IMG/VR virus record: IMGVR_UViG_3300018405_000012
From: an uncultured virus (IMG/VR IMGVR_UViG_3300018405_000012)
Taxonomy: Duplodnaviria > Heunggongvirae > Uroviricota > Caudoviricetes
Length of the DNA stretch: 20,000 nucleotides
Direction: 5' to 3' (one strand)
Shown: in pieces, positions 1 to 14,400 of the stretch
How the letters are laid out: each line of letters starts with the position of its first letter
Position numbering within the stretch: position 1 is the first letter of the stretch
Program-made: the position numbers and the translations under genes
Notes under the pieces: model-generated
What the model saw: only the letters and a program-made list of their open reading frames with translations
The model's database searches: none
What the model was told of the DNA's origin: nothing

Positions 1-650
1 GCGTCGATGTAGAACGCAGTTTCCAGTTCAGCCATCGGGATATCCCCATTAGCATCCTGGGCGAGGCTTTCCAGCGAGGCGGTGCCGTATTTCGAAGACT
101 TGGCGATCCCAGGCTCGTTCACACAATCCCAGGTCACGATCTTCTTCAGCAACTTGGTCTTGATGCCGCCAATGACCTTGTCATCGGTGAAGGAGCGGAT
201 TGAGAAGCATACGTCCTCATCCCGGTTCTCCAGCTGACGGTCAAGCCACATGCTCTCTTTACCAGAGGCTTTGACTTCGCCCACCACCATGGTCACGCCA
301 CGGCCCCGTTCATCGACACCCGGCTCCAGACGAATCCGGCGGATATGGACGCAGACGTTAGGTTCATAGATGTCATTGACACGACCGAACCATTCCAACT
401 GACTCATACCCGGCCGAAACCGCGGATGACCGCACTCGCCACGCAGACGACCTGCATCGATCAGGCGCATCAGGCCACCGGAGCCCTCGATGAGGCGCCG
501 ACCTTCTGGCTCGCTGTACAGCCAGCCCAGAGCATTGAATGCCCCAAGGGCACCCAAACGTACTTCATAATAGCCGTTGTCGAGCTTCTTAAGGTCCCCT
601 GCCTTGTTGATGCCCTGCAACACGTTACACTGATAAACAATACGTTCCAT
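1..650 (-). CDS. Prohead (head maturation) serine protease, phiKZ gp175/SPN3US gp245-like; runs off the left edge
   Basis: Not in the ORF track. Manual translation from ATG at 650, with GAGG upstream, gives MERIVYQCNVLQGINKAGDLKKLDNGYYEVRLGALGAFN...LRGECGHP...VCFSIRSF...IVTWDCVNEPGI...ASLES. It has the GExGHP (His), FSIRS (Ser) and WDxVxEPG (Asp) motifs of T4 gp21-type prohead proteases, and its position matches the phiKZ locus. Confidence 0.9.
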   Translation of the reverse strand, partial: MERIVYQCNVLQGINKAGDLKKLDNGYYEVRLGALGAFNALGWLYSEPEGRRLIEGSGGLMRLIDAGRLRGECGHPRFRPGMSQLEWFGRVNDIYEPNVCVHIRRIRLEPGVDERGRGVTMVVGEVKASGKESMWLDRQLENRDEDVCFSIRSFTDDKVIGGIKTKLLKKIVTWDCVNEPGIAKSSKYGTASLESLAQDANGDIPMAELETAFYID

Positions 651-663
651 GAGGAACCTCAAC

Positions 664-1395
664 TCAAGTTCGCAGAATTCGTTCAGTGCGCTCAACCCGG
701 TCACCTGGGTTCACAATCGCACTGGTCATACCTTCATCAAACCGACTACCTGCCAACTTCGCAATGGTGTTATTCGCACCATAGCTTACGTTACGTAGTG
801 GAATGATGGTCGGAGGATTCTGGTCAATATCTTCATAGGTTTCCACCGATTCCCGGTAGAACCGTCTCAGATCGGACGGGTCACGGCAAATGGTGCTGGC
901 GATGATCTCCATCACCGTGGGGGTCTTACCGACCCTGACGCCGGCGTGTTTACGAGCGGTGGAAAACATCCCACCGAGTTCGCGGTAAGTCAGGTACCAT
1001 GGCACACGTCCTTTCGCAATCAACTCATCGTAAATGCGGTAGAGCAGGTTGTCGATCATCACCAGATCTTCACTGGCAATGACCCTATCACCTGGTTCGT
1101 ACTGCATCTCGATGTACTCCACCTCATCAACGACTACACTGCCCACCAGTGTGGGTTCACTCCGGATGGGTGCACAGATCTTCGAAGCCATGTAGTACGT
1201 ATCGTCGAGGATGATGGCGCAAAACCCCAGGAAGGTGATCTCTTCCTCGAAGACCGCCAGTTCACGCTGGGGAAAGCGTGCTGGGATCTGGACCTTCAGT
1301 GGCTTCAATGCCACGTACGACCCTTCATCGGTGCGAGAAAGGGCCTTGTGTACCCGAGCTGCATCACGGATGTATCGGGAAGATGAAATGCTCAT
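664..1395 (-). CDS. Virion RNA polymerase beta' C-terminal subunit, phiKZ gp176/SPN3US gp244-like
   Basis: 243 aa with an AAGGA RBS. The C-terminus (NTIAKLAGSRFDEGMTSAIVNPGDRVERTERIL) resembles the RpoC C-terminal region. It lies directly upstream of the protease, as in phiKZ and SPN3US. Confidence 0.7.
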   Translation of the reverse strand: MSISSSRYIRDAARVHKALSRTDEGSYVALKPLKVQIPARFPQRELAVFEEEITFLGFCAIILDDTYYMASKICAPIRSEPTLVGSVVVDEVEYIEMQYEPGDRVIASEDLVMIDNLLYRIYDELIAKGRVPWYLTYRELGGMFSTARKHAGVRVGKTPTVMEIIASTICRDPSDLRRFYRESVETYEDIDQNPPTIIPLRNVSYGANNTIAKLAGSRFDEGMTSAIVNPGDRVERTERILRT

Positions 1396-1414
1396 GGTGA
1401 GATATCCTTGAGAG

Positions 1415-1438
1415 GGTCAGTGAGTCGCCCCACCGACC
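1415..1438 (-). other. Intergenic RNA hairpin with GNRA loop and no U-tract
   Basis: Minus-strand RNA GGUCGGUGGG-GCGA-CUCACUGACC forms 10 bp including 2 G-U pairs, just upstream of the RBS of 664..1395. Confidence 0.5.
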
Positions 1439-1448
1439 ACAATTGCCA

Positions 1449-2798
1449 TTACGCCTGAATCAGGCCCAGCTGGCGCGCTTGCCAGTGGCTGATGTACTTC
1501 ACGGTGGCCATCAGCGCCACTTCGCGCGGGTCAGTATCGGCCTCCATCTGCGCACCAACACGATTCATCAGGTTGATGAAGGTCAGGGCATCGGTCTTCG
1601 GGTAGAAAACTTCACAGATGATTTCGGTGATCAGTTGATTCAGATCATCACAGCACTTCTCGTGAATCTTGCTGCACAGATCGACCAGCTTACGCTGCGC
1701 ATCGGCCATGTCCTCGCCGAGGTCTTTCTCAACGATTTCACCATTGACGATCTGGCGCACGCCATCGCGCACAATGCCGGTCATTTCAGACTGTACCTTG
1801 AGGCTGCGCAGGTTCATCTCACGGGTGTAGATCTGTTCCAGAGCGGTCTTGTTCTCGATCAGCTGACCCTGACTGAACCGACGGCCGGCCATCTCGTTAC
1901 CGATCAGTGCCTCCGGGGTAAGACCCTGGTCCAACATCTGGCGGTAGACGCGACCCATCACTGCAACAGTGGTCAGCGAATCCCGACCTGTGGCATAGAG
2001 GGTGCCAGCCTTGTCGGCTGCTTCGTAACGCAACTGGGCACCGCGAATCAACTGGGCAGTTTTGGCCAGCAGGCGGTTGACCAGATCGTTGTACTCGACC
2101 AGTGTCAGGTTAACACCCGGCTCGGGTTCACCGTAGATGGCTTGAGCGGCCACCAGAACACCAGGAAGGTGATCGACGTGGAGTGCCTGTACACCTTTGC
2201 GACCCGACAGCACTTGCTGAACTTCAGCATAGCCTTCGTCGTTGCCCAGCCCCAGAATCACAGCCAGTTCTTCGTCGAAACCAGCCATGCCGGTTTTGCA
2301 GAGGTCCTTGACTCGGTCCAGTTCGACCGGGCACAGGTTGCGAGCGGGAGTGTCCAACTGACTGGCAGTCGGGTAGCGCTCATACAGCTGCTTCAGAACA
2401 GGGTTGCTGTACACGGCAGGGATTTCACGCATCTCCACGGTGTAGGGGAGGGAGGCCTCGACCCGACGGGCACTGACGTAGGCCTGAACACGCGGAACCA
2501 CGTCCTTGATGTGCGGCAGAATGACGTTGCGCGTCATGTCATGTAGACGGGAGATGGACAGCGAAGCCAGTTTGATGATGTCGGCTTTGGCCAGGCGATG
2601 AAGGTCGTTGTTGGAACGCTCTTGCAGTACAGTGGTGACATCACTGTTCAGGGCCAGGGCGTTTTCCACCAAGGCGGTTTCAGTGGTCATGGTCAGGCTG
2701 AGCAAAGGGCTACCTTCGCTCGGCAGCACGCGCAGCTTACGCTCAGCCAAACGCTGAGCCACTGGCAGGGCTGCTTCGATGGCGATACGGTTAAGCAT
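1449..2798 (-). CDS. Putative virion (internal head) protein, phiKZ gp177/SPN3US gp243-like
   Basis: 449 aa ORF whose start overlaps the upstream small ORF (ATGCTTAA). The product call rests on synteny and size only. Confidence 0.6.
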   Translation of the reverse strand: MLNRIAIEAALPVAQRLAERKLRVLPSEGSPLLSLTMTTETALVENALALNSDVTTVLQERSNNDLHRLAKADIIKLASLSISRLHDMTRNVILPHIKDVVPRVQAYVSARRVEASLPYTVEMREIPAVYSNPVLKQLYERYPTASQLDTPARNLCPVELDRVKDLCKTGMAGFDEELAVILGLGNDEGYAEVQQVLSGRKGVQALHVDHLPGVLVAAQAIYGEPEPGVNLTLVEYNDLVNRLLAKTAQLIRGAQLRYEAADKAGTLYATGRDSLTTVAVMGRVYRQMLDQGLTPEALIGNEMAGRRFSQGQLIENKTALEQIYTREMNLRSLKVQSEMTGIVRDGVRQIVNGEIVEKDLGEDMADAQRKLVDLCSKIHEKCCDDLNQLITEIICEVFYPKTDALTFINLMNRVGAQMEADTDPREVALMATVKYISHWQARQLGLIQA

Positions 2799-2985
2799 GT
2801 TCGCGACCCTCGATTACATTGTTCAGTTCGGCAGCCAGGATAGCTGCGATCGTGCGATCGTTCAGCGTGGTACCTTCCAGACGGTTGGAGATCATGTTGC
2901 CGGAGACGTTTCCGATGATCTCGGTGCCGATGTCGACGGCGTTCGCCAACACCGACAGGTTGTCAAAAGTAGTATTGGTGCTCAT
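2791..2985 (-). CDS. Small hypothetical, probably virion, protein
   Basis: 64 aa ORF that fills the gap between beta-N and the gp177-like gene and overlaps the next start by 8 nt, suggesting translational coupling. Confidence 0.6.
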   Translation of the reverse strand: MSTNTTFDNLSVLANAVDIGTEIIGNVSGNMISNRLEGTTLNDRTIAAILAAELNNVIEGREHA

Positions 2986-3013
2986 GAGAGAAAACCCTGT
3001 TTTGTGAAGCTGT

Positions 3014-3052
3014 AAAAGGAGGGCCAGAGACCCTTGAAGATCTCTGGCCTTC
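3014..3052 (-). terminator. Putative intrinsic terminator after vRNAP beta-N
   Basis: Stem GGCCAGAGAUC / GGUCUCUGGCC followed by CUCCUUUU, a few nt after the stop at 3060. Confidence 0.55.
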
Positions 3053-3059
3053 GATCACG

Positions 3060-4184
3060 TTATTTACCGTCCATCCACATCGCGGCAGCGTTTTCACCAA
3101 TCGCTGTCAAGACCGAGATGGTCATGCCAGACAACAGTGCGGACAATACAATCCGGTCCATGACCGACTTGGCACCGAAGACTGCGTTGACTGTCCGTCC
3201 CGATTCGGTCTCATTGATCCCCGACAACCGGTGACCGACAACACTCTTCATCTGGGAGGCAAATACCAACTTGTCCCCTACCGACATTCCTTCACGGTGC
3301 GTGATGTACACCTTGATTGCCATGTGATCGAGTTCGAGACCGTTGCCATCAATACGCAATGACTGATCCACTTGCCCACTGGCTGCCGGTTTACCCAGCC
3401 GCTTGGCCACCTTACGGCGACGCTTGTCGTGAGCCAACGCCAACTCCAAAAGCGAATCCGACATGTCGTCCGGGTCACCATGGTAGAAGACTTCGATCTT
3501 CGAGACTTCACCTACAGCGCCTGCCGAAGGTGTTGCCGATGACATTAGGCGCAAGGTATCCAGATCGTCGTCTGAGAACAAGCCGGATTCGGCTGTTACA
3601 GCGTCTTCGATCGTACATAGGATAGTTGCGATGTCCGTGTGGTCGCCTTCCTTGACCAAGTTACGGATTGTCTGGTCAAACCGAACAACAATGGTCTTGA
3701 CCTTGGTGACTTCCGATCCCAGTTGCTCAGCCAACCAATCATCAATGGCCGAGGAGTCCTCGAGCGTATAGGACGCTTCCATCAAAGCTGTCCGGGCAAT
3801 CACCCCTGCCATCCACTGTACCTGCTTGGGATGGAACCGGCTGGGCTTGAAGAACCCGGCGTTGTACTTGAGGATGTCGCCCTTCTCGATCTTGTCGCCC
3901 AGCTTCAGGGTTGTAGCCTGTCGCTGCGGATAGACCGAACCGGCCGAGATGCCATACTGCGTGGTCAGATCAACGTGTTCAAACGTCCCGTCCTCATACG
4001 CCACCACCAGATGCTCGTCACTCTGCTCAACCACTTCACCTGCTTTAGAAGCAGGCACGGCGAAGATCTCATCGACCCGATGGGCCAGAATGTGATCGTA
4101 ACCGGTGCTGATAGGTGACTCACGGTAACCCTGTGCAGCGATTACGTGAGACTGCTGGATGCCGATGAAGTTGACGCGTTTTGG
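3060..4184 (-). CDS. vRNAP beta-N subunit (gp178-like), exon 3
   Basis: The frame of ORF 3060..4058 is open upstream to 4184 and reads PKRVNFIGIQQSHVIA. It contains the RpoB-like motifs YTLEDS and VGDKLVFASQMKSVV. Joined to exon 2 it gives SPFSDRDD|PKRVNF, comparable to RpoB IPFLEHDDANR. Confidence 0.9.
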   Translation of the reverse strand, partial: PKRVNFIGIQQSHVIAAQGYRESPISTGYDHILAHRVDEIFAVPASKAGEVVEQSDEHLVVAYEDGTFEHVDLTTQYGISAGSVYPQRQATTLKLGDKIEKGDILKYNAGFFKPSRFHPKQVQWMAGVIARTALMEASYTLEDSSAIDDWLAEQLGSEVTKVKTIVVRFDQTIRNLVKEGDHTDIATILCTIEDAVTAESGLFSDDDLDTLRLMSSATPSAGAVGEVSKIEVFYHGDPDDMSDSLLELALAHDKRRRKVAKRLGKPAASGQVDQSLRIDGNGLELDHMAIKVYITHREGMSVGDKLVFASQMKSVVGHRLSGINETESGRTVNAVFGAKSVMDRIVLSALLSGMTISVLTAIGENAAAMWMDGK

Positions 4185-4491
4185 CGATGTCTTCGGTTAG
4201 GTTCGTTAAGCCTAACCCGCACCATTACGTGCAGCTCTGGGCTTTCCCCAGATGTCGAGACTATATCTTTACCCTCACTGTAGGGTAGTCCACATTTCCA
4301 CTCACTTGAGTGTACAGGCTGACGAGGCCTTAGTCGTTGAACCCGATCACCGTATCCGAAGACTTAGGTGCTTGGCTGCTGATTACCCAATCCTCACACT
4401 TTTCTAACCATGACCGTCTGATCTTTCGATCTCCGTTTTGGTAGTGAGGCTCTAAGGATGTCCCAGCAATTAGAGGACGCTCAGTTAACCA

Positions 4492-5508
4492 TTACTGATT
4501 AACCGGACCATTGTTACGGGCTGCATAGTCCGAATAGTACATGAATCTATATCCATCCCCATACGCCCGATCTGGGCGCTTGAGTCTGTAATCAAGAAGA
4601 GTTGGCGAGATATCGAATTTCCTAGCCGCATCTGTACATTGAGGAAATATCTCAATTGACTCACACGTGTCGTCAATTACTACGACAGACCTTTTCTTAG
4701 TGTACAAATCCAATTCCAAGTAGGGGTCTTCTACGTGTCGCCATGGTTTAGGATCACTAGCCAATTTTACCTGAATGTATCCAGGGAGTACTGGCTGGTT
4801 TTCTTGTTTTAACCATAGTGTCAACTTCGATTGATTGGTTCCTAGGAGCATAGCGAGCGTTTTAAGCTTCGAGAATGACTTTATTTTCCCTGTTAGAAGT
4901 TCTCTCACTAAAACTACTTTGCCATTGCGGTCCGGGAATGTCTTCCTTAATTCCTTTCCAGGAATGAACCAATCTTCTTCATCATGGAGACGTTTATACT
5001 GCCGTCCATCGGGAAATACCTTCTGTCCCTTAGACATTATCCTCCACAGTACAGCGTCCTTTGTCAAACCTAGATTAAGTGCGCATTTGATAGCACTTGG
5101 AAACTCAATAACAATACCAGTTACCGAGTCCCTGACAAGGACGGGAACGCATTTACTGGTCAATTGGTTATAACCAGCGTGTTCAGCGTTACCTGTATAA
5201 GTCTCCCACTCGAGATTATCAAGGAAATCATCGCCCTTGATGCAGTTCTTGTGGTTGACCACTAGGTTATCTATTGGGTATCCTGGGTGTTTGAAGACGA
5301 AGCACATGAGTCTGTGTCGACCCCAAGTTAACACCTTTCCATTGTCCCCAATTAATCGAAAGTTAAAGTAACCCTTCGGATTTCGACTTCCTTGCAGATA
5401 TTTCCCATCTGCCCGCCTAATTACTTCCCCAGTTATGGAAATCCCATAACGACTATATCCAGAAATTTCATAGAAACCTGGATAGTCCTCTAACTCGATT
5501 GGATTCAT
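4492..5508 (-). CDS. Intron-encoded NUMOD4/HNH homing endonuclease (I-HmuI-like) with repeated C-terminal DNA-binding modules
   Basis: Contains YGISITGEV...KGYFNFRL...HRLMCFVF...VNHKNCIKGDDFLDNLEW...N. The ATG at 5508 is 6 nt after AGGAG. The ORF is visibly more AT-rich than the flanking exons. Confidence 0.9.
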   Translation of the reverse strand: MNPIELEDYPGFYEISGYSRYGISITGEVIRRADGKYLQGSRNPKGYFNFRLIGDNGKVLTWGRHRLMCFVFKHPGYPIDNLVVNHKNCIKGDDFLDNLEWETYTGNAEHAGYNQLTSKCVPVLVRDSVTGIVIEFPSAIKCALNLGLTKDAVLWRIMSKGQKVFPDGRQYKRLHDEEDWFIPGKELRKTFPDRNGKVVLVRELLTGKIKSFSKLKTLAMLLGTNQSKLTLWLKQENQPVLPGYIQVKLASDPKPWRHVEDPYLELDLYTKKRSVVVIDDTCESIEIFPQCTDAARKFDISPTLLDYRLKRPDRAYGDGYRFMYYSDYAARNNGPVNQ

Positions 5509-5513
5509 GTGCA

Positions 5514-5540
5514 ACTCCTATCATGACATACAATAGGAGT
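5514..5540 (-). promoter_or_regulatory. RBS-sequestering hairpin of the endonuclease with TATG in the loop region
   Basis: ACUCCUAU (5540-5533) pairs perfectly with AUAGGAGU (5521-5514), which contains the SD AGGAG. TATG is at 5530-5527. Confidence 0.75.
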
Positions 5541-5570
5541 ACTATATTCATTACTATACAGCAAACATTA

Positions 5571-7028
5571 ATCGTCTCGGTCAGAGAACGGTGAGATCAA
5601 AGCTGATGTCGACAGCAGGTTAGCCGAACCATCCTTTTCCTTGTCGTACTTGCGAACGGTACCGCGAATGCTGGTGATGTTGGCATTCGGTGACATGTAG
5701 GTGATGACCGCCACGTCCCCCGAGTCCACTGTATCCCCAGAGATGAAGCCAATATCACTTTCCTTGTACAGGCGAGATTCTGCGGTCATCGAGCGGCTGC
5801 TCCGTCCACCGCGACCCCCGTACGTGATGATCTCCTTTTGCTTGAGGTTCTGAATCGGGTTGATGTCATCGACCAGTGCCGACGCCGGGTCTTGGACGAT
5901 GTTGGTCCAGACTTCATGGGGCTTCATGGTGACTTGAGAGTTGCTCGATGCACTGCGCGAGTTATACACCCGAATCGAACGCACCAGTTCCCCATAGACT
6001 GCTCCCGGAATCCGCTCATAGCCCTTGGCTCGTTCGAGACCATCGATCAGACCTTCCGCCCCTTCCACAACAGTTGGGACATAACGGTTGATCAGCAGCT
6101 CGACAGCCCGTAGCAACAATGGCACATACTCGGTGGGTTCTTTCATCCACTCGAGTACGCCCTTGGTGATCGGATCGACCCACATGGCGTTCATCAGGTC
6201 CAGTTCACGCAAATACCGCAACCCGATGCCGTTGGCGTCCAATACCGTGAAGTACACATCCTTGGCATTGAAGCTATGGCGACTGAAGCTCTTGATCTGC
6301 TTGTGATAGTGCACGAACCCGGCGAAAATCATACTGACTTTGTCGTCGGTCTTGTCGAGCACCACCGTTTCATCCAGGAACTTCAACGCGTACTCATCCG
6401 GCCCCATCTGCAGCCTAGTTCCAACAGGGACCGTCCGGAAGCTGGCTTTGGTCAGTTCAAGCAACCGATCAAACCCGACCAGATACGCCAGTGCGATTCC
6501 AACCGGCATGGTTTTACCGAAGATGCTGATTTCAGCCATCCCCACCGGGGCCTTTTCACGGTTCAGGTTAAACAGCTCTTCGACATGACCCAGCTCTTCA
6601 ACCTGTTCATTACCCTTAACCAGGTAGAAAGCATTGTCACGGTCCACCAGTACATAACCGTTGTCGCGCTTACCGCAGACCACCATCCCAGGATGCTTGT
6701 TCTCCAGCGCTTCGACCTGTACCATGTCCAATACACGGCTGCGGTGGCGGTTCTTGTAATCGAACCAGTACTGTCCATTCGACTCAAAGGACATCACACG
6801 GCTGCCGATGATGGTGTAAATCGTGGGCAGGTCAAGTCCGAAGTCCGCTACGTCAGCGACCTTTACATTGTTGATGTCGTTATCGGTCTTATCCAGACCC
6901 TTGGCGACAATCTGCTTACCGATCCAGGCATCGTAGTTGAACACAGAGCGCTGAGAGCGTTCGATGAACAACTTACTGTAGTAGCTGGTCAGTGCTACAC
7001 GGGTGGGGTTAACTTTTCTGATGGGAAT
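5571..7028 (-). CDS. vRNAP beta-N subunit, exon 2
   Basis: 486 codons from IPIRKVNPTRVALTSYYSK to SPFSDRDD. It includes the RpoB-like segments NPIQNLKQKEIITYGGRGG and GFISGDTVDSGDVAVITYM. Confidence 0.9.
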
Positions 7029-7492
7029 CAACCCCATCTGGTTGGACCATATCTTCATCCTCAGCACTCTATTGAGTTGTAGGATGCCTACCGTTTCCCC
7101 ATTCTTAATGAACAGGTACTCTACTCGCTTTAAAGACTCCTAAGAGCCACCACCTGGCTTTATGCAGATGTCATTAGTCCGTATGTACGGATGTAGCTTT
7201 CGATGGCCTCTGAGCACATCCCATGGCCTTGTAGGGCGTTAGGGACTTCGCTGCGTCGGTTGCGCCTATCGTTGACGTTTTTACCATGCTCATCGCTTCC
7301 ATTACTGGGATGAGTGTTACTCTCAGTTTCCTGGAGCAAGTGGTAGCCAATGACCTTAACGGCGTTTTCCCGCAATTAGGTAGGTTTGCTAGTGACGCAT
7401 TACTGCATCACGCGAACATTCGTTTCCGGTGTAATGATTTTACTGGGGTCGAACACATGTCCCCGTGCTTTAACGATTACTGGAAATTATTT
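7029..7492 (-). ncRNA. Group I intron, 464 nt, ORF-less
   Basis: Core elements are P AAUUGCGGGAAA, Q CGACGCAGCGAAG, R CUCAGAGGCCAU, S AAGAUAUGGUCC and P3 CCUACC/GGUAGG. The internal guide GAAUGUUCGC (7421-7412) pairs with 5' exon GCGGAU, with U-G at the splice site, and with 3' exon AUUC. Terminal G is 7029. The spliced protein reads QKAD|IPIRKV. Confidence 0.92.
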
Positions 7493-9301
7493 ATCCGCTT
7501 TCTGAGTCCGCAACCGATACCGTTGACCGTTGGAGATGTACACCCCGCGCTTGTCAACGACCGGCACCCGGAACGAGATGGTCGAAGGTTTTCCCGTTAC
7601 AGGAGTCAACTGGATCTTGTGGATCTCATAGTGACTGACCGCATCCTGCACCACCTCTACCTTATACCCAGTAACTGCTACACCGGCTTTCTGAACGGAC
7701 ATCACCGCATTGAGAATGTCCTTTTTCATCACCCGTTCGATGTACTGACTGTCCATCTGCTCCACGGTGGATTGCAACATGGATTCGTCACGCACCGCGT
7801 CAGTCTTAGGGTAGTTGTCAGCTGCCGAGAGGATTTGATCTTCATCGGTGATGACCAGCGACTCTTCCACAGTCTTCCCTGTGTTCCACGGATCGGGCAT
7901 GGTCTTGTACGACTCGGCCAGACGCTGCATCCGACGGTACTGGGCAGCGGTATACAGGTCCTTGTCCACCAATTCATCGAGCTTAGCCTGAATGCTGCTA
8001 GTCAGGGTGTGTGCGATGTTGCTGGTACCGACCACTTGACCGACGCTTTCGCGTTTATCCTGGTCAGCCTCAATCACCAGCTCCCCGTCCTCATCGGTGA
8101 GTACAGTGTCGGTATTGTCGGTCGCTGGCTCATCGAGTTCTTCAGCCAGTTCTTCTTCCACCTCGTCGATGGTCAGTTCGGGAGTGGTTGACTCCTCCAG
8201 CAGTCGGGCTTCTTCGTCAGCTTCTTCCTTGGCCTGAGCCGCTTCTTCAGGGTCCACCTCGCCTGCTTCAGGGGATTCCTCCAGCAAATCCGGATCAACT
8301 TCGGCCTGCACTGTACTGGTCTGAGCAACAACCCGTGTCAACATCTTCAGGAAGCGCAACTGGATGATCTTGGGGTCAATGCCAGCCGCAGCTTCCATCG
8401 AAACCTGCATGTCCTCATCCAGCGTCATGTCACCATTGTTCTCCATCGAGACATACCGATCAAAGGTCTCCTCGAAGTCAAACTCAGGGTCCGGTTCACC
8501 GATGGTCAGAGATTCCATAGAGACACCGGCACCTGCTTTACGCCAGCTATTGAGCAAGCCCAAGTTGATGGTCAGGAACCCAGTCTCGCGGCGAATAAGC
8601 AGTTCGATCTCATGTAGGCGCGATTCGTCCAACTTAGCCATTGGCGCCTTGGCACGGTGTTCGCCCAACCACATCCACAGATCCAGCAGATCCAGACGCT
8701 CACGTGAGTTGAATACTTTCATCAACATCGGCGTCATGTTGCGCTCTGCTTTACGCAGATCCGACAGGGCTGGCAGGCTCTGAGGGACATCCATCACGAC
8801 CAGATGATGACGTTCGTGAGGAGTCTTCAGCTGATTGATCCGCTCCCATTGCGTGGAACGAATGTTCTTCCAGTACCACCACCGACTCAGAGCCGAACGC
8901 TGATACTTGTACATGTGTCCGATCATGGCGTAGTTGACCACCACCATGTTGGTCAGCTCTTTGGTGCTACCGATGTAATCGCGCATCGGTCGGATGAACA
9001 TGTGCTCACGCCGATACTGCTGAATCATCGGACCAATCAGCTTATAGGTCGGCCGGGGATTGCCGTCTTTAACCAACAGATCAGATACATGATCAATGAA
9101 GACCAACCGCTGGGCCGCCTTGATGGCAGGGTCGTCATTGGCCGGGCCGAGTTCAGTCTCGGTGACGGGCATGTAGTGGTAGACCGTACCACGCGGTAGC
9201 GCAAAGCGACTGATCGGCCTGACCTTGGGGTTTTCCAGACCACCCAAGCGTCGAATACCGAACAGCTTTTCATAGCGCTCGTAAAGAAACATTACAGCCA
9301 T
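7493..9301 (-). CDS. vRNAP beta-N subunit (gp178-like), exon 1; spliced product about 1463 aa
   Basis: The ATG at 9301 is preceded by AGGAGA, a better start than 9322. The exon ends in the RpoB-like FRVPVVDKRGVYISNGQRYRLRTQKAD. The three exons give 603+486+374 aa. Confidence 0.88.
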
Positions 9302-9330
9302 GTTAAATCTCCTGGCGCTCACATATCGAC

Positions 9331-9525
9331 TTAGGCTTTTGCCCGGCCGTGTTTGAAGCGACCCGTCATGTTGGCAATCACGTACTTGATGGTGTCGTAG
9401 TTGTAGGAGGAAAGCAGGCTGCCGTCAGTGTCGACCCAATACTGGCGACTGCTGAGCAGTTTGTCGTTTTCATCCAAGGCTTCATTACTCATCACCAAGG
9501 TTGCAGAACCAGTGTCTCCGTCAAA
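9331..9525 (-). CDS. vRNAP beta'-N subunit (gp180-like), exon 2
   Basis: Begins TTT GAC GGA GAC (FDGD), completing the catalytic ADFDGD motif; 64 codons plus TAA. Confidence 0.92.
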   Translation of the reverse strand, partial: FDGDTGSATLVMSNEALDENDKLLSSRQYWVDTDGSLLSSYNYDTIKYVIANMTGRFKHGRAKA

Positions 9526-9887
9526 CGGTATCTTCGGGTAGAGCCGCAACGCTCTACCCCGTGCACTCAAGCACTGCTCCAGGCTTTCCCTAGATGTCGA
9601 GACTATATCTTCACCTTCACCCTGAGGTGGTCAGGTGTCTCCCATTTCGGAACGCTTGTTCCTACGGGGCGCTACCCCCTAGTCGTTGAACCTTCCCCAT
9701 GCCGTTTGGTTTAGGGGCTTGGCTGCTAAAGGGACTCTTAGAGTCCACGGTTCCCCATTGTACATCCGTCCCGTTTTCAGACCATGGCTTTGCCTTTCGG
9801 CTCGCAGTGGTGGGACAGCTTTAGGGGGTTCCAGCAATTAGAGAGAAATCACTCCATCATTTCGGATGGAGGGGACTTTACTTGTTA
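9526..9887 (-). ncRNA. Group I intron (IA-like, with P7.1/P7.2), 362 nt, ORF-less, inside the DFDGD motif
   Basis: P1 is exon GGAU paired with GUCC, with U-G at the junction. Core elements are P AAUUGCUGGAA, Q UAGCAGCCAAG, R GUUCAACGACUA and S AAGAUAUAGUCU. Terminal G is 9526. Confidence 0.95.
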
Positions 9888-11336
9888 ATCCGCCTGCAAT
9901 CCCACCAGTTTGGCGGAATGTGGTGACTGACTGTCCATATAGGACGTCGATCCAGTCAATGGAAACTCAAGGGCGACATGATCTTCTGGATAGGGTTCCC
10001 AGTTATCGTCGAGTTCAGTCCGCTTCTCACCCACGATGGTCGTCTTGACATAGATGCGGCTCGCATAGATCGAGCGGTTACCGGAAATGGGGTAACGACT
10101 GATCTGGGCAAAATACCGGTTCCAGTGCTTGTAACCACAGAGGTAGAGCAACTCCACCAAGTTGATGGGGTGGACATGATCACGGTTAAGCTCGGCAGGC
10201 ATGTCATGCAGATCGTGGAAGATCTTGAAAGTCATGTCCGGACCTTTATAGATCAGGGCCAGATAATTCCCCTCCACCTCAATAGCCCGATGACGCACAT
10301 CCATCATCTGGTAGCGATCGATGATCCGCTCCAATCCATCGCGGGTGGTCCACAGATCACGGGTTTCAGGCGACAGAGTTACCCACTTGGGACGGAGGGT
10401 TTCCTTGTCAATCAGGCGGGCTTGACCTTCCCCTGGGTTGATCAGCGGCTCTACCAGGTTACGCAGATGGTGGATGGTGACTGGGGTCAGTCCCTTGATG
10501 ACCTGAAACAGGCCAAGGGTCGTGGCATCGAAACCCGGTGCATTAGTGTCATCCAAGTTGGCAATGGAGGTGTCCATTACGGTCAGGACGTTCCGGGTAC
10601 CGTAAGTCACCCGACGGCTGGCCCACTTGTCCAGAATCAGACCATTCTTACCGGACAGCATACCTTCGATGAGGTCGTAGATTTCCATCAGGCAGTTGGT
10701 CAGTGCGTTACGGGCAATGTCCAGGGCGGGTGATTCCATGTCACTGCTAATCGGGATGGTGTTACTGATTGACAGTGCCCGGTAATACAAGTCATGGATC
10801 TCGTTCTTAGAGACCACACCGTTGTCACTGATCTCAAGGTCACGCATCCCAGCCGGAATAATCGGCAAGTACTGCCCCAATGCGGTATCACGCCACTGAT
10901 TAATGAACTCAACGCGCATCTGGCGGGTTGGCGACTTGCTCTTGCGCAGCTGCAGTTCATGGAAGTGACGAACAAAGAAGCTGTAACCGGTTTCAGCCTT
11001 CTCGGACTTGTCTGCAATGAAATCCTTGGACACCGGGTCAAAAATGGCGGTCTCCCGCCCACTGACGATCCCACGGTAAATACCTTTCAGGCTCATCAGG
11101 TCCCTGAAGATCTTGGGGTGAAACACCCGGACCTTGAGGTTAATGTAGGAAAAGGTGGTTTCGCGTTGATCTGAACCCACCCGACCGAAGATCCGGGTTG
11201 AATACAGTCCCTCATCGTGAAATTCACTGCTGGCCCCGTCGTAGATATCAAGGCTGGTGACCGGGGTCAAGCGACTGACCCGTTCTTTAGTCAGGACCAT
11301 TGGCCAGACCTTGGCCGGAATCTCTGCGTAATTCAT
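9888..11336 (-). CDS. vRNAP beta'-N subunit (gp180-like), exon 1; spliced product about 547 aa
   Basis: Contains the RpoC-like motifs DEGLYSTRIFG, LPIIPAGMRD, GKNG..RRVTYGTRNV and SRYP. It ends at LVGLQAD, the first half of the catalytic motif. Confidence 0.92.
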
Positions 11337-11406
11337 AGTGGGATTTCCAACAGTTGGTATGAAAGAAGGCTAATCTTATTTAAAGCCTGCGTGGAGTATC
11401 TAGACC

Positions 11407-14400
11407 ATGGCTAAGAAAGACGAAATCAATTTGGACGACCTCGACCTCGATAGTTTCGACTTCGACGTCCCTGAATTTGATGGCGAAGGTGTGGAGGATA
11501 GCTCTTCCCGCAAACCCATCGAGCGTGTGCTCAAAGGCGTAGTACACGGCGCTAAAAACGAATTGACCAGTGTATCCAGCCTCAGGACCGCTATGTCGCT
11601 GGCAATGCCTGAAGGGTATTCGCTGGCAGCTGACACACTCGAGAATATCGCAACCGACACCCGCTCACTATACGATAAGGTAGCCGGGGATTCTCCAGAA
11701 CTGGTTCGCAGCAGTAAGAGTTTTGGTCGAAAGGCCATGAACCTTCTGGGAAATAAGGTTCTGCCTAAGAAAGTCGCAGACCGCCTGAACAACGCCCTGG
11801 AGGAAGGTGAAGACTACAAGGTCACCTCCGAAGCCCAGTACCGTCGAGAACAGGAAGAGAGTGAGCTGGCTGCGCTGGCTGAGATCTTCAAGGCCAAGGC
11901 CGCTGCCGACGAAGAGCGTTCTGATCAGGATGCAGTTGAGAACGTCGAACGCAAGGCGCTTGAACAGGCTCGCTTAGTCCAACATCCAAGCCCTCAATGC
12001 CATCAATCGCAGCATGGCACGGTTGGTTGGGTATCAGGACAAGGTCACTATTCGTTACCAGCAAAAGATGCTGGAACTGAATTACCGTCAGTACGCGACC
12101 ACCAAGCAACTGACGGACATGATGTCCATTGCGACACAGAAACAACAACAATTACTTGAAACCATCCGCCACAACACCGCGCTCCCTGAGGCAGTTAAGA
12201 TTCGTGGCAGTGAAATGTTTGGTCAGATGGCCAGACAACGACTCATGGGAAATGGTCTTAACACGATTTCCAATTGGTCGCAAAATTACACCAAACAGAT
12301 GATGTCCAACGTCCAGGGCATGGTCAGCGGTTTCCTTGATCCAGTCAAGGATGCCCGCAGCATGACCGAGGGCATGGATAAGAGCTATCTGGCAGGTCAG
12401 ACCCTCGGCGCGACTGCCGCCGGGGCAGCTCGCGATCACGCATCGATGTTCATCTCGCCATTCCTGGCGAAGAACAAGCGTATCGCAATGGGTGGTGAGA
12501 AACTCAGAGGTGCATTCAGCGGCCTGCCGCAGAAAGTCAACGAATACGCGCAAAGTCAATCTGACAACGAAGGCTATGGCTTCAAGTCAGTGATGGGCAA
12601 AGTCTTCAAGAGCTTTTTGCCGCAATTTAGTCTGGATGCACGAACTGGTGGGGATTCGATTGAATCCCTCGATGAGATGGCGACGTTTGATAAACTCTCA
12701 CGCCGTTCATTGATCGAAGTGATTCCAGGTTACCTGTCTGAAATTGCTCACTGGACCAAAACCCTCGCTCGAGGTGAAGAGGGCGAGAAGCAGGTCTATA
12801 ACCTTGCTCGGGGTGGTTTCACTAGCCGCAAAGATCAACTGAAGGATATCCAACGCACGCTGATGCCACGTCAAGAACGTGAAAGTCTACGCGCTGCCGC
12901 GGATGACTTCCTGAAGATGATTGGCGCCGACGGGATGTCTACGCGCGCACAGCGAGTGCTCAAACTGAAGTTGCTCGATGAGTTGGCTAACGGACGCGAC
13001 CTGAAACCCGACCGGTTGTCCGATCCCGACAACTACCCAGGTGAAGAACTGGGGGTGGTGGAGGAAATCACCGAAGCGGTAATCGATGCATTCGGGTTGG
13101 ATGAGAACGGCAAGCGCACTGACATGTCCATCGAGGGACGTAAGCGCTTCAATGACATTGCCGATCACTTCTATCGCATGTCCAGCATGGTACCTGCGAT
13201 AGGCGACAAGACCCGCATCCTCGGAGACCTATTTGGTAAAGACACCCTTAGAGAACTTGGCTTCATACGCCGGGATGGCCGCGAAGACACCATTGATTTC
13301 AACAAATATTGGAGCAACATTCTCGATGGCGACTCCGACGCTGAATCAGGTAAAACAGGAACTCCGCAAGGTCGCAAGGATGACGTTAATCTGCGTGATC
13401 TCCTGCCTGGTAGTATTGCAAAGCTTATTGATCCTGCTGGTGATCATGCCTCGCGGGCTGTTCGAGCTGACGTATCTTCCGCTGGCGCGGCGCAGAGCCT
13501 CGGTCGAAAGACCGGACTAGAGCGTTACCTAGGGGATAAATCCACCCTCCTGACTTTGATCCGTGAATCGCGAGATTTTCACAGTGAGACAGTTGAGCTA
13601 CTCAAGCAACTCAGTACAAAAGGAATGTGCTGCAGTCAGCGCGGGGCCATGGAAGGGATGGCAGGAAAGGTGCAAGGGGCTACCCAGAACCTCTCCGAAC
13701 GCTTCAGGCATTACCGCAATGTTGCCGGTGATCGGGCATCCGATGTCTGGAAACGCGGTAATGAAAAATTCGACAAAGCCAAGGAGCTGGGTAGGGATAT
13801 CTGGCTCCAAGGCGATGATCATCCATTGATCACTGAAGCCAAGCTTAAAGCTGGCGAGTACCGTGACAAAGCCACCGGTGAGATCCTCAAGCACTGGGAG
13901 GAGATTAAAGGCGATGTCGTCGACCTCAAGGGCAAGACAGTCATGCGGTACAACGACTTCATGGAAAGCGGTTACATCGCTGACAAGAAAGGGAAGCTGA
14001 TCAAGCGCGCTGCAGACCTTAAGTTCAGGTTTGCCAGTTCAAAGGCCGGTCAGATGACCAGTGAGGCAGCCCGGTATATCACCGATCAGTCCAACAAATT
14101 GGCAACTGCAGCCAGCCCCCACCTGGACCAGGCAGGCAAGGAACTGAAGCGCCAGAAGCGTACCTTCAGACCTCGCATGAATCGTCTGATGCGCAGGCTC
14201 AAAGGTGAGCTGGGTGCTGATGTTTCCAGTGAGCTGACCGGAGACCATAACGAGGACATGTTGACGCTGGCGCTGCGCAACGTGCAGCTTCAGTACCAGA
14301 CCTTGCAGGAAGTCACCCGCGAGAAAGTCCGTAAGGGATCGTTCCAGGATCTGGCTTCGAGAGCCAAAGGAATGAAAGATGATCTTAAGGACAAGATCAA

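What the first reader, a model, noticed from the sequence alone, without database searches (positions are those of the whole stretch)
4185..9887. Three group I introns within 5.7 kb of the virion RNAP genes, only one with an endonuclease
Seen: five RNAP-like ORF fragments become two complete genes (about 547 and 1463 aa) when 9526-9887, 7029-7492 and 4185-5570 are removed, and each removed segment has P/Q/R/S cores, a 5' exon U and a terminal G. Known: phiKZ-like phages carry group I introns in RNAP genes. Inference: three in adjacent vRNAP genes is an unusually dense cluster, and the two ORF-less introns may spread by co-conversion or in trans with the single HNH nickase. A functional packaged RNAP would need all three splicing events.
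Basis: partly seen in the sequence, partly recalled or inferred. Interest (0 to 1): 0.85.

Follow-up and report, generated by a model that had tools for sequence, protein, structure and literature searches.

The report
Three self-splicing introns in phage polymerase genes
Two neighbouring genes for the RNA polymerase that a giant phage packs into its particle are interrupted by three genuine group I introns; this is real and neatly documented by an intron-free sister phage, but such introns turn out to be common at these same spots in related phages.

Summary
On the minus strand, 9526-9887, 7029-7492 and 4185-5570 match Rfam Intron_gpI (47.9, 55.3 and 72.1 bits). Removing them gives 547-aa and 1463-aa proteins that align without gaps across all three junctions to intron-free homologues. 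A sister contig about 98.5% identical in the exons lacks exactly these three segments and has no group I hit in its 250 kb.

The junctions fall in conserved motifs, each after an Asp codon: AD|FDGD (beta' catalytic loop), KAD|IPIRK and DD|PKRV. The last is the site of the PhiPA3 gp210 intron.

The claim of an unusually dense cluster is not supported. In IMG/VR relatives the three sites are occupied in 9 of 80, 7 of 67 and 12 of 66 loci. One other contig has all three, and four more have three to five hits.

Hitch-hiking on the single HNH is not favoured. Each junction has its own short patch of foreign exon sequence, the exons between stay sister-like, and the introns occur in different combinations elsewhere. 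HEG-bearing versions exist at both ORF-less sites.

Splicing itself was not observed. Verdict: new members of a known kind.

The parts
9888..11336 (-). Gene A (phiKZ gp180-like virion RNAP subunit carrying the beta' catalytic loop), exon 1, 483 codons, ends ...GLQAD
   Evidence: ORF. 79% identical to DT01 PA10_00092. tblastn finds 309 phage records. The uninterrupted L006 version matches PHROG phrog_2986 'RNA polymerase beta subunit', E 2e-182.
9526..9887 (-). Intron A, 362 nt, no ORF. It splits the AD|FDGD motif and starts with an in-frame TAA.
   Evidence: Rfam RF00028 47.9 bits, E 6e-10. Absent from L006. 95%-like copy at the same site in L008, whose exons are only about 80% alike. U at -1 and terminal G.
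9871..9876 (-). Internal guide sequence of intron A (3' strand of P1). It pairs with the last exon bases, including the U-G wobble at the splice site.
   Evidence: Rfam alignment and pairing scan. The 33-nt insertion of L008 lies in the loop between the 5' splice site and this element.
9331..9525 (-). Gene A exon 2, 64 codons plus stop, begins FDGDTGS
   Evidence: In frame after the junction.
9888..9926 (-). Foreign exon patch 5' of intron A (co-conversion tract). 18 of 39 bases differ from L006, against a background of 1.46%.
   Evidence: binomial P 4e-23. 12 of the 18 differences are at third codon positions.
7493..9301 (-). Gene B (phiKZ gp178-like virion RNAP beta subunit) exon 1. Start ATG at 9301, ends ...RTQKAD.
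   Evidence: The alignment to DT01 PA10_00093 starts at this Met. The uninterrupted L006 version matches PHROG phrog_3148 at 1511 bits.
7029..7492 (-). Intron B1, 464 nt, no ORF, between KAD and IPIRK. In-frame stop after one codon.
   Evidence: Rfam 55.3 bits. Absent from L006. All six compared inserts at this site in other phages resemble it and neither of the other two introns. 60 of 97 predicted pairs show compensatory changes.
7412..7417 (-). Probable internal guide sequence of intron B1. Six pairs with the last six exon bases.
   Evidence: Pairing scan. Agrees with the P1 position in the Rfam alignment.
5571..7028 (-). Gene B exon 2, 486 codons, ends ...FSDRDD
4185..5570 (-). Intron B2, 1386 nt, with an HNH ORF. 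It is inserted after the two conserved Asp codons, the same site as the PhiPA3 gp210 intron, and starts with an in-frame TAA.
   Evidence: Rfam 72.1 bits on 4235-4537. Absent from L006. Same gene position as the PhiPA3 gp211/210/209 and Serratia phage 2050HW arrangement. Site description in PMC11620839.
4492..5508 (-). HNH homing-endonuclease ORF, 338 aa plus stop, lying in the P1 loop of intron B2. Its 3' end overlaps the guide sequence and P2.
   Evidence: 42% identical to PhiPA3 gp210 over 325 aa, with His86 aligned to gp210 His82. 48% identical to the Serratia phage 2050HW endonuclease. PHROG phrog_59 'HNH endonuclease', E 3e-25. PDB 1u3e 'HNH homing endonuclease', E 9e-9. Pfam HNH_3 only 18.6 bits, below its cut-off of 24.8.
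5514..5540 (-). Hairpin whose 3' arm contains the Shine-Dalgarno sequence of the HNH ORF
   Evidence: Read from the sequence. Equivalent hairpins stand upstream of PhiPA3 gp210 and the 2050HW endonuclease. A regulatory role is inferred.
4506..4510 (-). Probable internal guide sequence of intron B2, downstream of the ORF
   Evidence: The same position relative to P2 and P3 in the PhiPA3 and 2050HW introns, with different bases that still pair with their own exons.
3060..4184 (-). Gene B exon 3, 374 codons plus stop, begins PKRVNFIGIQQ
7014..7028 (-). Foreign exon patch 3' of intron B1: 6 of 15 bases differ from L006. Two more differences lie at 7493 and 7496 on the 5' side.
   Evidence: 8 of 19 bases, P 1e-10.

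Best explanation
What it is. The window holds the two adjacent virion RNA polymerase genes of a phiKZ-like jumbo phage. One is gp180-like and carries the beta' catalytic DFDGD loop. The other is gp178-like, the beta subunit. Three group I self-splicing introns interrupt them.

How it works. The steps below are inferred from the established group I mechanism and were not observed here.
1. Each intron folds into the P3-P9 ribozyme core.
2. Its guide sequence pairs with the last bases of the upstream exon, with a U-G wobble at the splice site.
3. An external guanosine attacks that site.
4. The freed exon end then attacks after the intron's terminal G.
5. The message is rejoined so that intact 547-aa and 1463-aa subunits are made.
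A stop codon directly after each 5' splice site keeps ribosomes out of the folding ribozyme.

The three introns.
- Intron B2 is the homologue of the PhiPA3 gp210 intron. It sits at the same DD|P site and carries a gp210-like HNH endonuclease in its P1 loop. By homology that enzyme should nick intron-free alleles and drive homing.
- Introns A and B1 are endonuclease-less members of two other site-specific intron lineages. Their endonuclease-bearing versions occupy the same sites in other phages.

How they got there (inferred). All three were acquired separately by DNA-level recombination (homing or marker rescue) from diverged donors. This happened in a lineage whose sister phage has none.
For: Ribozyme identity.
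- Rfam scores are 72.1, 55.3 and 47.9 bits.
- RNAalifold finds compensatory changes in 48 of 76 pairs for the A/B2 family and in 60 of 97 pairs for the B1 family.

Exact excision.
- The alignment to DT01 is gapless across the junctions.
- L006 lacks exactly the three segments.

Splice-site rules.
- U at -1 and a terminal G hold in all three.
- Occupied alleles end in GAT in 11 of 11 loci counted at the DD| site and 7 of 7 at the B1 site. At the A site 8 of 9 end in GAT and the ninth ends in T after the next codon.
- Empty alleles are GAC or GAT.

Gene identity.
- PHROG RNAP beta-subunit families match.
- tblastn gives 36-38% identity to the genes of phage fnug (species phiKZ) and matches to PhiPA3 gp212 and gp211/209.
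- The genes lie next to a large + strand ORF in the position of DT01's gp181-like endolysin gene.

HNH.
- 42% identical to gp210, with the catalytic His conserved.
- Same insertion site as described in PMC11620839.

Separate acquisition.
- Mismatches to L006 cluster at each junction: 18 of 39, 8 of 19 and 3 of 7 bases, against a background of 85 in 5825.
- The exons between the introns stay sister-like.
- L006's 250-kb record, 94% complete, has no RF00028 hit and no HNH_3 or HNH homologue.
- In the first set of 15 IMG/VR relatives, 13 are uninterrupted at every site their contigs reach, L016 ends before the DD| site, and L008 carries only intron A. DT01 is also uninterrupted.

Mobility.
- Intron A is about 95% alike in L008, whose exons are about 80% alike.
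- The B2 ribozyme is 89.5% alike in L032, whose exon is 72-73% alike.

Endonuclease-bearing versions.
- A site: HNH ORFs in L140 and in Vibrio phage vB_pir03.
- B1 site: Zn-finger endonuclease-like ORFs in L078 and vB_pir03.
Against: - No RNA evidence of splicing was obtained. The one run labelled RNA-Seq that I laid (X14) is held as contigs, is flagged as probably DNA, and shows no joint at the true junctions.
- Intron A is below Rfam's gathering score (47.9 against 50).
- Pfam HNH_3 on the ORF is below its cut-off (18.6 against 24.8).
- For phiKZ itself, PMC10914365 reports that full-length transcript data gave no evidence for splicing of its predicted introns. Splicing in this phage group has therefore not been shown in any text I read.
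- The direction of change (gain here rather than loss in the sister) rests on parsimony only.
Confidence: 0.9

Rival explanations
1. The two ORF-less introns spread together with, or by means of, the single HNH nickase of intron B2. They would either be carried in its co-conversion tract or be mobilised because the enzyme also cuts their target sites.
For: - The three introns lie within 5.7 kb.
- Trans homing of a phage intron with a defunct endonuclease, driven by a neighbouring HNH gene, is reported for T4 mobE (PMC2790892; listing and start of abstract only).
- Collaborative homing of ORF-less introns with free-standing endonucleases is described in PMC3984707 (passages).
- The empty target sites share GAC at the cut position.
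Against: - The exon stretches between the introns (1458 and about 2030 nt) differ from the intron-free sister only at background rate. Each junction has its own short foreign patch.
- L008 has intron A without B1 or B2.
- Contigs of run X4 show A empty, B1 present and a different 1411-letter insert at the B2 site. Contigs of run X9 show A and B1 empty.
- The A and B1 sites have their own endonuclease-bearing introns elsewhere.
- The three empty targets share little beyond GAC.
Confidence: 0.1
2. The common ancestor of the window phage and its sister already had the three introns, and the sister lost all three precisely. On this view the foreign patches are in the sister, not in the window.
For: - In the 39-nt patch next to intron A, the window version and the L006 version are about equally far from the other relatives, so the patch itself does not give the direction.
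- Precise loss by recombination with an intron-free phage is possible.
Against: - In the first set, 13 of the other 14 IMG/VR relatives and DT01 show no interruption at any of the three sites that their contigs reach. L016 ends before the DD| site and L008 has only intron A. Absence is therefore the likely ancestral state, and the rival needs three gains plus three losses.
- The sister has no group I hit at all.
- In the patch the window has Ala where all 15 other aligned relatives have Thr.
Confidence: 0.12
3. The inserts are not spliced. The genes would be split into five separately translated pieces that assemble, as jumbo-phage RNAP subunits often are, or they would be dead genes.
For: - Jumbo-phage RNAP genes are naturally split into several polypeptides (PMC7598289, passage).
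- No splicing was seen in phiKZ transcript data (PMC10914365).
- No junction reads were found here.
Against: - The 3' pieces were not checked for ribosome-binding sites, but each continues a conserved motif in mid-sentence (FDGDTGS, IPIRK, PKRV). A start codon at the boundary would add or replace residues there.
- One break falls inside the catalytic loop.
- The ribozyme cores are under structural constraint, with compensatory changes.
- Contigs 99-100% alike to the window, including the intron B2 and HNH region, stand in run X3, which is not flagged as the source of this DNA. Contigs of run X14 also cover that region. A dead phage would not persist like this.
Confidence: 0.02
4. The ORF-less introns entered by reverse splicing into mRNA at sites matching their guide sequence, followed by reverse transcription and recombination.
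For: - Introns A and B1 follow the same exon hexamer.
- Reverse splicing needs only four to six matching bases (PMC3984707, passage).
Against: - A and B1 are unrelated ribozymes with different guide sequences.
- Each comes with a patch of foreign exon sequence, which reverse splicing would not bring.
- Each lineage is tied to its own site across phages.
Confidence: 0.03

Closest known systems
PhiPA3 gp210 mobile intron in the virion RNAP beta gene gp211/209 (Birkholz et al. 2024, PMC11620839)
   Same: - Same gene and same insertion point, directly after the two conserved Asp codons.
- Same layout: endonuclease ORF first, ribozyme core after it.
- HNH proteins 42% identical, with the catalytic His conserved.
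- Ribozyme 3' parts alike: 63 nt of intron A are 90.5% identical to the PhiPA3 intron.

   Different: - The phage is different. Its exons are only 34-44% identical in protein to PhiPA3.
- Two further introns stand in the same gene pair. PhiPA3's gp211 is continuous across the B1 site. Its A site lies within my locus and no interruption was seen there, but I did not examine that junction specifically.
- Nicking and competition effects were shown for gp210 and are not tested here.
Phage group I introns of T4 (td, nrdB, sunY), SPO1/SP82 (I-HmuI) and Twort
   Same: - Self-splicing introns in conserved motifs of essential genes.
- An in-frame stop after the 5' splice site.
- HNH nicking endonucleases.
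- Several introns in one gene in Twort (title cited in PMC11620839; general features from PMC3984707).
- The best solved relative of the ORF is PDB 1u3e, deposited as 'HNH homing endonuclease'. From memory this entry is I-HmuI.
   Different: - The host genes here are the multisubunit virion RNAP genes of jumbo phages.
- The ORF sits in the P1 loop.
- Subgroup assignment was not made with a dedicated tool.
Unannotated introns at the same sites in GenBank phages vB_pir03 (Vibrio) and vB_XciM_LucasX (Xanthomonas) and in IMG/VR contigs
   Same: - vB_pir03 has an intron with an HNH ORF at or next to the AD|FDGD site and an ORF-bearing intron at the KxD|xPIRK site.
- LucasX has an ORF-less intron after GLGAD, 56.8 bits.
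- IMG/VR contig IMGVR_UViG_3300020599_000004 has all three sites filled with ORF-less introns.
   Different: - Those records annotate the pieces as separate hypothetical proteins.
- Their exons are only 33-55% identical in protein to the window.
Trans or collaborative homing of endonuclease-less introns (T4 mobE with the nrdB intron; free-standing endonucleases with ORF-less introns)
   Same: ORF-less introns A and B1 nevertheless show signs of recent DNA-level transfer. Foreign exon patches flank them, and intron A is about 95% alike between phages whose exons are about 80% alike.
   Different: No free-standing endonuclease gene lies next to the two genes in the window. The 107-kb record holds only the one HNH_3 match. 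No acting enzyme is identified.

Membership tests
Group I intron (Rfam RF00028) | Match to the covariance model at or above the curated score | tested here: met
   B2 scores 72.1 bits and B1 scores 55.3 bits, above the gathering score of 50. Intron A scores 47.9 bits, just below it, with E 6e-10. Same-site relatives of A score 85.5 (L117), 67.5 (L140) and 43.1 (L008) bits.
Group I intron (Rfam RF00028) | Conserved paired core kept by compensatory changes | tested here: met
   48 of 76 pairs (A/B2 family, 12 sequences) and 60 of 97 pairs (B1 family, 9 sequences) have at least one double change that keeps the pair. P7 crosses P3, so RNAalifold cannot draw it. It is seen as GACUA/UAGUC in A and B2 and as GGCCA/UGGUC in B1 in the Rfam alignments.
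Group I intron (Rfam RF00028) | U as last exon base paired to G of an internal guide sequence; G as last intron base | tested here: met
   Read from the sequence for all three. Occupied alleles in relatives end in T: 9 of 9 at the A site, 7 of 7 at B1 and 11 of 11 counted at the DD| site.
Group I intron (Rfam RF00028) | Removal restores an uninterrupted functional gene | tested here: met
Group I intron (Rfam RF00028) | Guanosine-dependent self-splicing | not testable with these tools
   Only contigs were available from sequencing runs, and no true junction was seen.
Subgroup IA (phage-type, with P7.1/P7.2) | Extra helices between the 5' strand of P7 and the 3' strand of P3 | tested here: inconclusive
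   Inserts of 34, 33 and 108 nt stand at that place in the Rfam alignments of B2, A and B1. Two covarying hairpins are predicted there in the A/B2 family (columns 289-303 and 307-322). The rule that this defines subgroup IA is recalled, and no subgroup model was run.
HNH homing endonuclease of the gp210 / I-HmuI kind | HNH catalytic motif | tested here: met
   His86 aligns with gp210 His82, whose H82R mutant is inactive (PMC11620839; alignment). PHROG phrog_59, E 3e-25. PDB 1u3e, E 9e-9. Pfam HNH_3 is below its cut-off, 18.6 against 24.8.
HNH homing endonuclease of the gp210 / I-HmuI kind | Encoded inside an intron at the site it targets | tested here: met
   The ORF 4492-5508 lies inside intron 4185-5570, at the DD|P site shared with PhiPA3 and Serratia phage 2050HW.
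HNH homing endonuclease of the gp210 / I-HmuI kind | Site-specific nicking of the intron-free allele | not testable with these tools
   Inferred from 42% identity to gp210.
phiKZ-type virion RNAP subunits gp180 / gp178 | Sequence homology and gene order next to the gp181-like tail lysin | tested here: met
   PHROG phrog_2986 and phrog_3148. tblastn matches to PhiPA3 gp212 and gp211/209 and to the phiKZ-species genes fnug_213 and fnug_212. The DT01 neighbour is annotated as like gp181, and a 1900-aa + strand ORF stands beside the genes in the window.
phiKZ-type virion RNAP subunits gp180 / gp178 | Presence in the virion | not testable with these tools
   Taken from the statement on gp178 in PMC11620839.

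The most novel reading that the evidence does not exclude
The virion RNAP gene pair of these jumbo phages is a battleground for intron-borne nucleases. At least five recurrent insertion points exist, each after a codon ending in U in a catalytic or conserved motif. Introns arrive singly and quickly: three here against none in a sister about 98.5% identical. The endonuclease-less introns A and B1 are kept because they break up the target sites of nickases carried by competing phages. They would then be immunity alleles in the interference competition shown for PhiPA3 gp210, not mere decayed parasites.
Probability: 0.3. Interest if true: 0.6.

Novelty: new member of a known kind. Interest (0 to 1): 0.4.

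Why it matters
The virion RNA polymerase starts the infection of nucleus-forming jumbo phages. An intron nuclease aimed at its beta gene was recently shown to decide competition between co-infecting phages (PMC11620839).

This window adds three things:
- a clean natural pair: one phage with three introns in these genes and a sister about 98.5% identical with none;
- exact empty target sites for all three introns;
- short foreign patches that mark three separate entries.

That makes testable whether introns without a nuclease protect their carrier from nucleases of rivals, and how far conversion tracts reach in these phages.

It also shows that several GenBank jumbo-phage records annotate intron-split RNAP genes as separate hypothetical proteins.

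Tried and rejected
- Evidence for splicing from public runs. One search listed 20 runs. Four were laid (X3, X4, X14, X9). All are held as contigs. The one labelled RNA-Seq (X14) is flagged as probably DNA and shows no joint at the true junctions. Its many joints between 4236-4393 and 9615-9829 link the similar cores of introns A and B2, at very high depth, and most likely come from other introns in the sample. This gives no verdict on splicing.
- Pfam on the four large exon pieces and the 79-aa fragment gave no family at E 0.01. PHROGs was needed.
- Megablast of the whole region against GenBank phages found only 3 records, covering at most 13% of the query.
- The genome search 'own' failed because the assembly is not held. 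The nearest record, G001, was used instead.
- The notes of this scan held nothing for this genome.
- The AR9 genome paper could not be opened. What I remember about introns in AR9 RNAP genes is therefore not used.
- My first occupancy count, from tblastn breaks, missed two B1-site inserts (L080, L095) and one insert four codons past the DD| site (L043), because alignments ran on into the intron. It was replaced by a stop-codon test.
- Five inserts had no Rfam hit at the gathering score (L068, L076, L078, L084, L139). They were not checked at a looser threshold. L094 was not scanned.
- An alternative 3' end of intron B1 at 7018, where the Rfam alignment ends, was rejected. It would break the reading frame, and L006 fixes the end at 7029.
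- Guide-sequence candidates inside the HNH ORF of B2 were set aside in favour of the position conserved in the PhiPA3 and 2050HW introns.

Full report
**1. What is in the sequence.**
The genes of interest lie on the minus strand. Five RNAP-like open frames stand at 9885-11336, 9331-9630, 7487-9424, 5568-7139 and 3060-4196. A 340-codon frame lies between the last two; from its ATG the ORF is 338 aa.

Rfam's group I intron model (RF00028) matches three places:
- 4235-4537, 72.1 bits;
- 7018-7432, 55.3 bits, both above the gathering score of 50;
- 9577-9897, 47.9 bits, E 6e-10, just below it.

In the 107-kb virus record that holds the window (handle G001) these are the only three matches.

**2. 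Exact borders.**

Joining the exons in a script gives two proteins. Gene A is 547 aa: 11336..9888 + 9525..9331. Gene B is 1463 aa, counted from the ATG at 9301: 9301..7493 + 7028..5571 + 4184..3060.

Both align to the uninterrupted genes PA10_00092 and PA10_00093 of Pseudomonas phage pPa_SNUABM_DT01. Identity is 79% and 75.5%, and there is no gap at any junction.

The junctions read LQAD|FDGDT, QKAD|IPIRK and DRDD|PKRVNF.
- The first splits the DFDGD motif. That this is the catalytic loop of the beta' subunit is established knowledge, from memory.

Each intron puts a stop codon in frame at once (TAA in A and B2) or after one codon (B1). PMC3984707 describes this as usual for introns in protein genes (passage).

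**3. An intron-free sister.**
Fifteen IMG/VR loci encode relatives of exon 2. One of them, L006, lies in a 250,515-bp contig estimated 94% complete.
- It aligns to the window's exons at 98.3-98.7% nucleotide identity.
- It lacks exactly 9526-9887, 7029-7492 and 4185-5570.
- Its whole record has no RF00028 match, no HNH_3 match and no relative of the HNH protein.

This fixes the borders to the base. It also rules out the alternative 3' end of intron B1 at 7018, where the Rfam alignment stops.

**4. Foreign patches at each junction.**
In an ungapped comparison of the joined exons with L006, 119 of 6065 bases differ. Away from the junctions the rate is 85 in 5825, or 1.46%. Next to the junctions the differences pile up:

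| Junction | Positions that differ | Count | Binomial P |
|---|---|---|---|
| A | last 39 exon bases before the intron (9926-9888) | 18 of 39 | 4e-23 |
| B1 | 7496, 7493 before; 7028, 7026, 7023, 7019, 7017, 7014 after | 8 of 19 | 1e-10 |
| B2 | 5574, 5571 before; 4182 after | 3 of 7 | 1e-4 |

At junction A, 12 of the 18 differences are at third codon positions. A further difference lies at 9517, just after that intron. These three windows were drawn around the clusters after seeing the data. With fixed windows of 15 bases on each side, the counts are 8, 8 and 3 of 30 (P 9e-9, 9e-9 and 9e-3).

In all three cases the empty allele ends in GAC and the occupied one in GAT, which supplies the U needed at the splice site.

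The exons between the introns differ from L006 only at the background rate. I read this as three separate short conversion tracts from diverged donors, not one long tract.

The patch next to intron A is about equally far from the other relatives in both versions. The direction, gain here or loss in the sister, therefore rests on parsimony:
- In the first set of 15 IMG/VR relatives, 13 show no interruption at any site their contigs reach. L016 ends before the DD| site, and L008 has only intron A. DT01 is also uninterrupted.
- The sister has no intron anywhere.

**5. The introns as RNAs.**
Introns A and B2 have related cores: 45 nt are 89% identical, and the layout and 3' hairpin are similar. 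B1 is unrelated to both at the sequence level.

An RNAalifold run was made on 12 ribozymes of the A/B2 kind from the A and DD| sites of different phages. It gives 76 pairs, 48 of them with at least one compensatory double change. The same on 9 B1-site ribozymes gives 97 pairs, 60 of them with such changes.

P7, which RNAalifold cannot draw because it crosses P3, is visible in the Rfam alignments. It reads GACUA/UAGUC in A and B2 and GGCCA/UGGUC in B1.

Guide sequences that pair with the exon ends were located:
- 9876-9871 for A;
- 7417-7412 for B1;
- 4510-4506 for B2.

In B2 this element lies after the ORF. The PhiPA3 and Serratia phage 2050HW introns have it at the same place, with bases that fit their own exons. 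The endonuclease gene therefore sits in the P1 loop. The 33-nt insertion in L008's copy of intron A lies in that same loop.

**6. The endonuclease.**
The ORF runs from the ATG at 5508 to the stop at 4492-4494 (338 aa).
- It is 42% identical to PhiPA3 gp210 over 325 residues. His86 aligns with gp210 His82, whose change to Arg abolishes nicking.
- It is 48% identical to the endonuclease that splits the same gene at the same place in Serratia phage 2050HW.
- PHROGs places it in HNH endonuclease families.
- The best solved relative is PDB 1u3e, 'HNH homing endonuclease'.
- Pfam HNH_3 stays below its cut-off.

A hairpin at 5514-5540 holds the Shine-Dalgarno sequence in its 3' arm. Like hairpins stand before the PhiPA3 and 2050HW ORFs.

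**7. How common are introns at these sites?**
Two profile-guided scans of IMG/VR returned 67 loci around exon 2 and 80 loci around the end of gene A's exon 1. The test was for stop codons next to the exon borders, after a first count from alignment breaks had missed three cases.

| Site | Interrupted loci | Notes |
|---|---|---|
| A (AD\|FDGD) | 9 of 80 | |
| B1 | 7 of 67 | |
| DD\| (B2) | 12 of 66 readable | |
| PKRV\|, four codons further on | 5 of 66 | a distinct nearby site |

Two further loci could not be scored: L065 is ambiguous and L056 looks broken.

Insert sizes fall into a short class (about 330-670 nt) and a long class (about 1100-2300 nt).

Rfam support:
- A site: 7 of the 9 inserts reach the gathering score. 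L008 (listed as L118 in this scan) reaches 43.1 bits, and L139 has no hit at the gathering score.
- B1 site: 2 of the 7 reach the gathering score (L088, L100). Two more score 46.4 and 46.7 bits (L098, L071). L078 and L095 have no gathering-level hit at that place, and L080 was not scanned.
- DD| and PKRV| sites together: 16 of the 17 inserts were scanned (L081 through its GenBank copy L024), and 12 of them have a gathering-level hit. L068, L076 and L084 have none, L043 was scanned with no hit over the cut-off, and L094 was not scanned.

One contig, IMGVR_UViG_3300020599_000004, is about 51-55% identical in protein to the window. It has all three sites filled by ORF-less introns of 353, 592 and 479 nt (85.5, 46.7 and 54.1 bits).

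L095 has five gathering-level hits in 8.4 kb plus an insert at the B1 site. L072, L074 and L093 have three each. L093 and L095 show a further site after GD|K near residue 1400 of gene B.

Among GenBank phages:
- vB_pir03 has ORF-bearing introns at or next to the A site and at the B1 site.
- LucasX has an ORF-less intron at the A site, 56.8 bits.
- Eowyn, pVa-21, SA002, fnug and Noxifer are uninterrupted at all three sites.

The cluster in the window is therefore not unusual for this group of phages.

**8. Site-specific lineages and their nucleases.**
All six compared B1-site inserts resemble the window's B1 and neither of the other two. A-site and DD|-site inserts cross-match each other.
- The A-site intron of L140 carries an HNH ORF 36% identical to the window's HNH.
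- The vB_pir03 A-site ORF has HNH_3 and NUMOD1 domains.
- The B1-site ORFs of L078 and vB_pir03 share DUF723, CapR and DUF4379 zinc-finger domains, and L078's ORF matches PHROG endonuclease families.

Both ORF-less introns of the window thus have nuclease-bearing relatives at the same sites. This fits loss of the nuclease gene after homing, the cycle sketched in PMC3984707.

The introns are much better conserved than their host genes:
- Intron A is about 95% alike in L008, whose exons are about 80% alike.
- The B2 ribozyme is 89.5% alike in L032, whose exon is 72-73% alike.

**9. Combinations in nature.**

| Source | A | B1 | B2 / DD\| site |
|---|---|---|---|
| L008 | present | empty | empty |
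| Run X4 contigs | empty | present | a different insert of 1411 letters |
| Run X9 contigs | empty, with the sister-like flank | empty | not covered |
| Run X3 contigs | not bridged | 3' junction crossed by 8 nt | present, 99-100% alike to the window |

Together with section 4, this argues that the three introns move independently.

Whether the HNH also cuts the A and B1 targets cannot be decided by computation. The empty targets share little beyond GAC at the cut position.

**10. What is not shown.**
- No spliced RNA was seen.
- For phiKZ, a long-read transcript study found no support for splicing of its predicted introns (PMC10914365, passage).
- In the passages I read, the PhiPA3 paper calls its intron 'putative'.
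- I found no text describing introns at the A or B1 sites, or several introns in the virion RNAP genes. Supplements of these papers were not opened.
- Host and taxonomy of the window phage were not determined. The closest isolate, DT01, infects Pseudomonas aeruginosa.

**11. Verdict.**
The finding is real and its coordinates are exact.
- It consists of new members of known kinds: a gp210-type mobile intron, plus two nuclease-less introns of two other site-specific lineages, in the virion RNAP gene pair of a phiKZ-like jumbo phage.
- The density is ordinary for this group.
- The added value is the near-identical intron-free sister, the three separate conversion patches, and the picture of these genes as a recurrent intron target.

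Noticed in passing
window 5514-5540 (-); L005 about 3765-3800; L024 about 5960-5990: A hairpin that locks the Shine-Dalgarno sequence of the intron HNH gene is conserved in place, though not in sequence, in the window, PhiPA3 and Serratia phage 2050HW. It suggests that translation of the nuclease is held back in the precursor RNA.
   Followed up: partly
L095 (IMGVR_UViG_3300042566_001512) 352-656, 759-1072, 4928-5219, 5267-5553, 6497-6739: Five gathering-level group I hits stand in one 8.4-kb stretch of the same two genes. They include two back-to-back at or near the A site and two back-to-back at the DD| site, and there is also an insert at the B1 site.
   Followed up: partly
L093 6126-6389 and L095 6497-6739: A further recurrent intron site in gene B, after GD|K near residue 1400. 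The window has VGD|KLV there and is uninterrupted. This site again follows an Asp codon.
   Followed up: no
L043, L068, L076, L093, L094: A second insertion point four codons after the DD| site (PKRV|NF), used by both short and long inserts. L043 belongs to the window's own 75-81% clade.
   Followed up: partly
window 7473 (run X4): Two X4 contigs both stop matching at 7473, 19 nt inside intron B1, and run on with unlike sequence on either side. This would fit an insertion, perhaps a nuclease gene, in the P1 loop of B1 in that population.
   Followed up: no
window 4136-4419 and 9532-9815 (runs X3, X14): Very high summed contig depth (up to about 2000) lies on the conserved cores of introns A and B2 only, with chimeric joints between the two. 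Many other introns of this family seem to be present in those samples.
   Followed up: no
L078 1986-3140; L025 3878-4966: The ORFs of B1-site introns carry repeated DUF723, CapR and DUF4379 zinc-finger modules and match PHROG endonuclease families. This is a different nuclease type from the HNH of the A and DD| sites.
   Followed up: partly
L026 (LucasX) 8001-10040; L025 (vB_pir03) 1-7940; L024 (2050HW) 903-8454: GenBank records annotate the intron-split RNAP genes as separate 'hypothetical protein' or 'RNA polymerase beta subunit' CDSs, without intron features. In 2050HW the gp180-like gene is also cut into three CDSs by apparent frame breaks.
   Followed up: partly
window 9927-14873: The stretch from gene A exon 1 into the large + strand gene (12014-17716, the position of DT01's gp181-like endolysin) is less like L006 than the RNAP genes are: 96.6% identity with 4 gaps, against 98.3-98.7%.
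   Followed up: no
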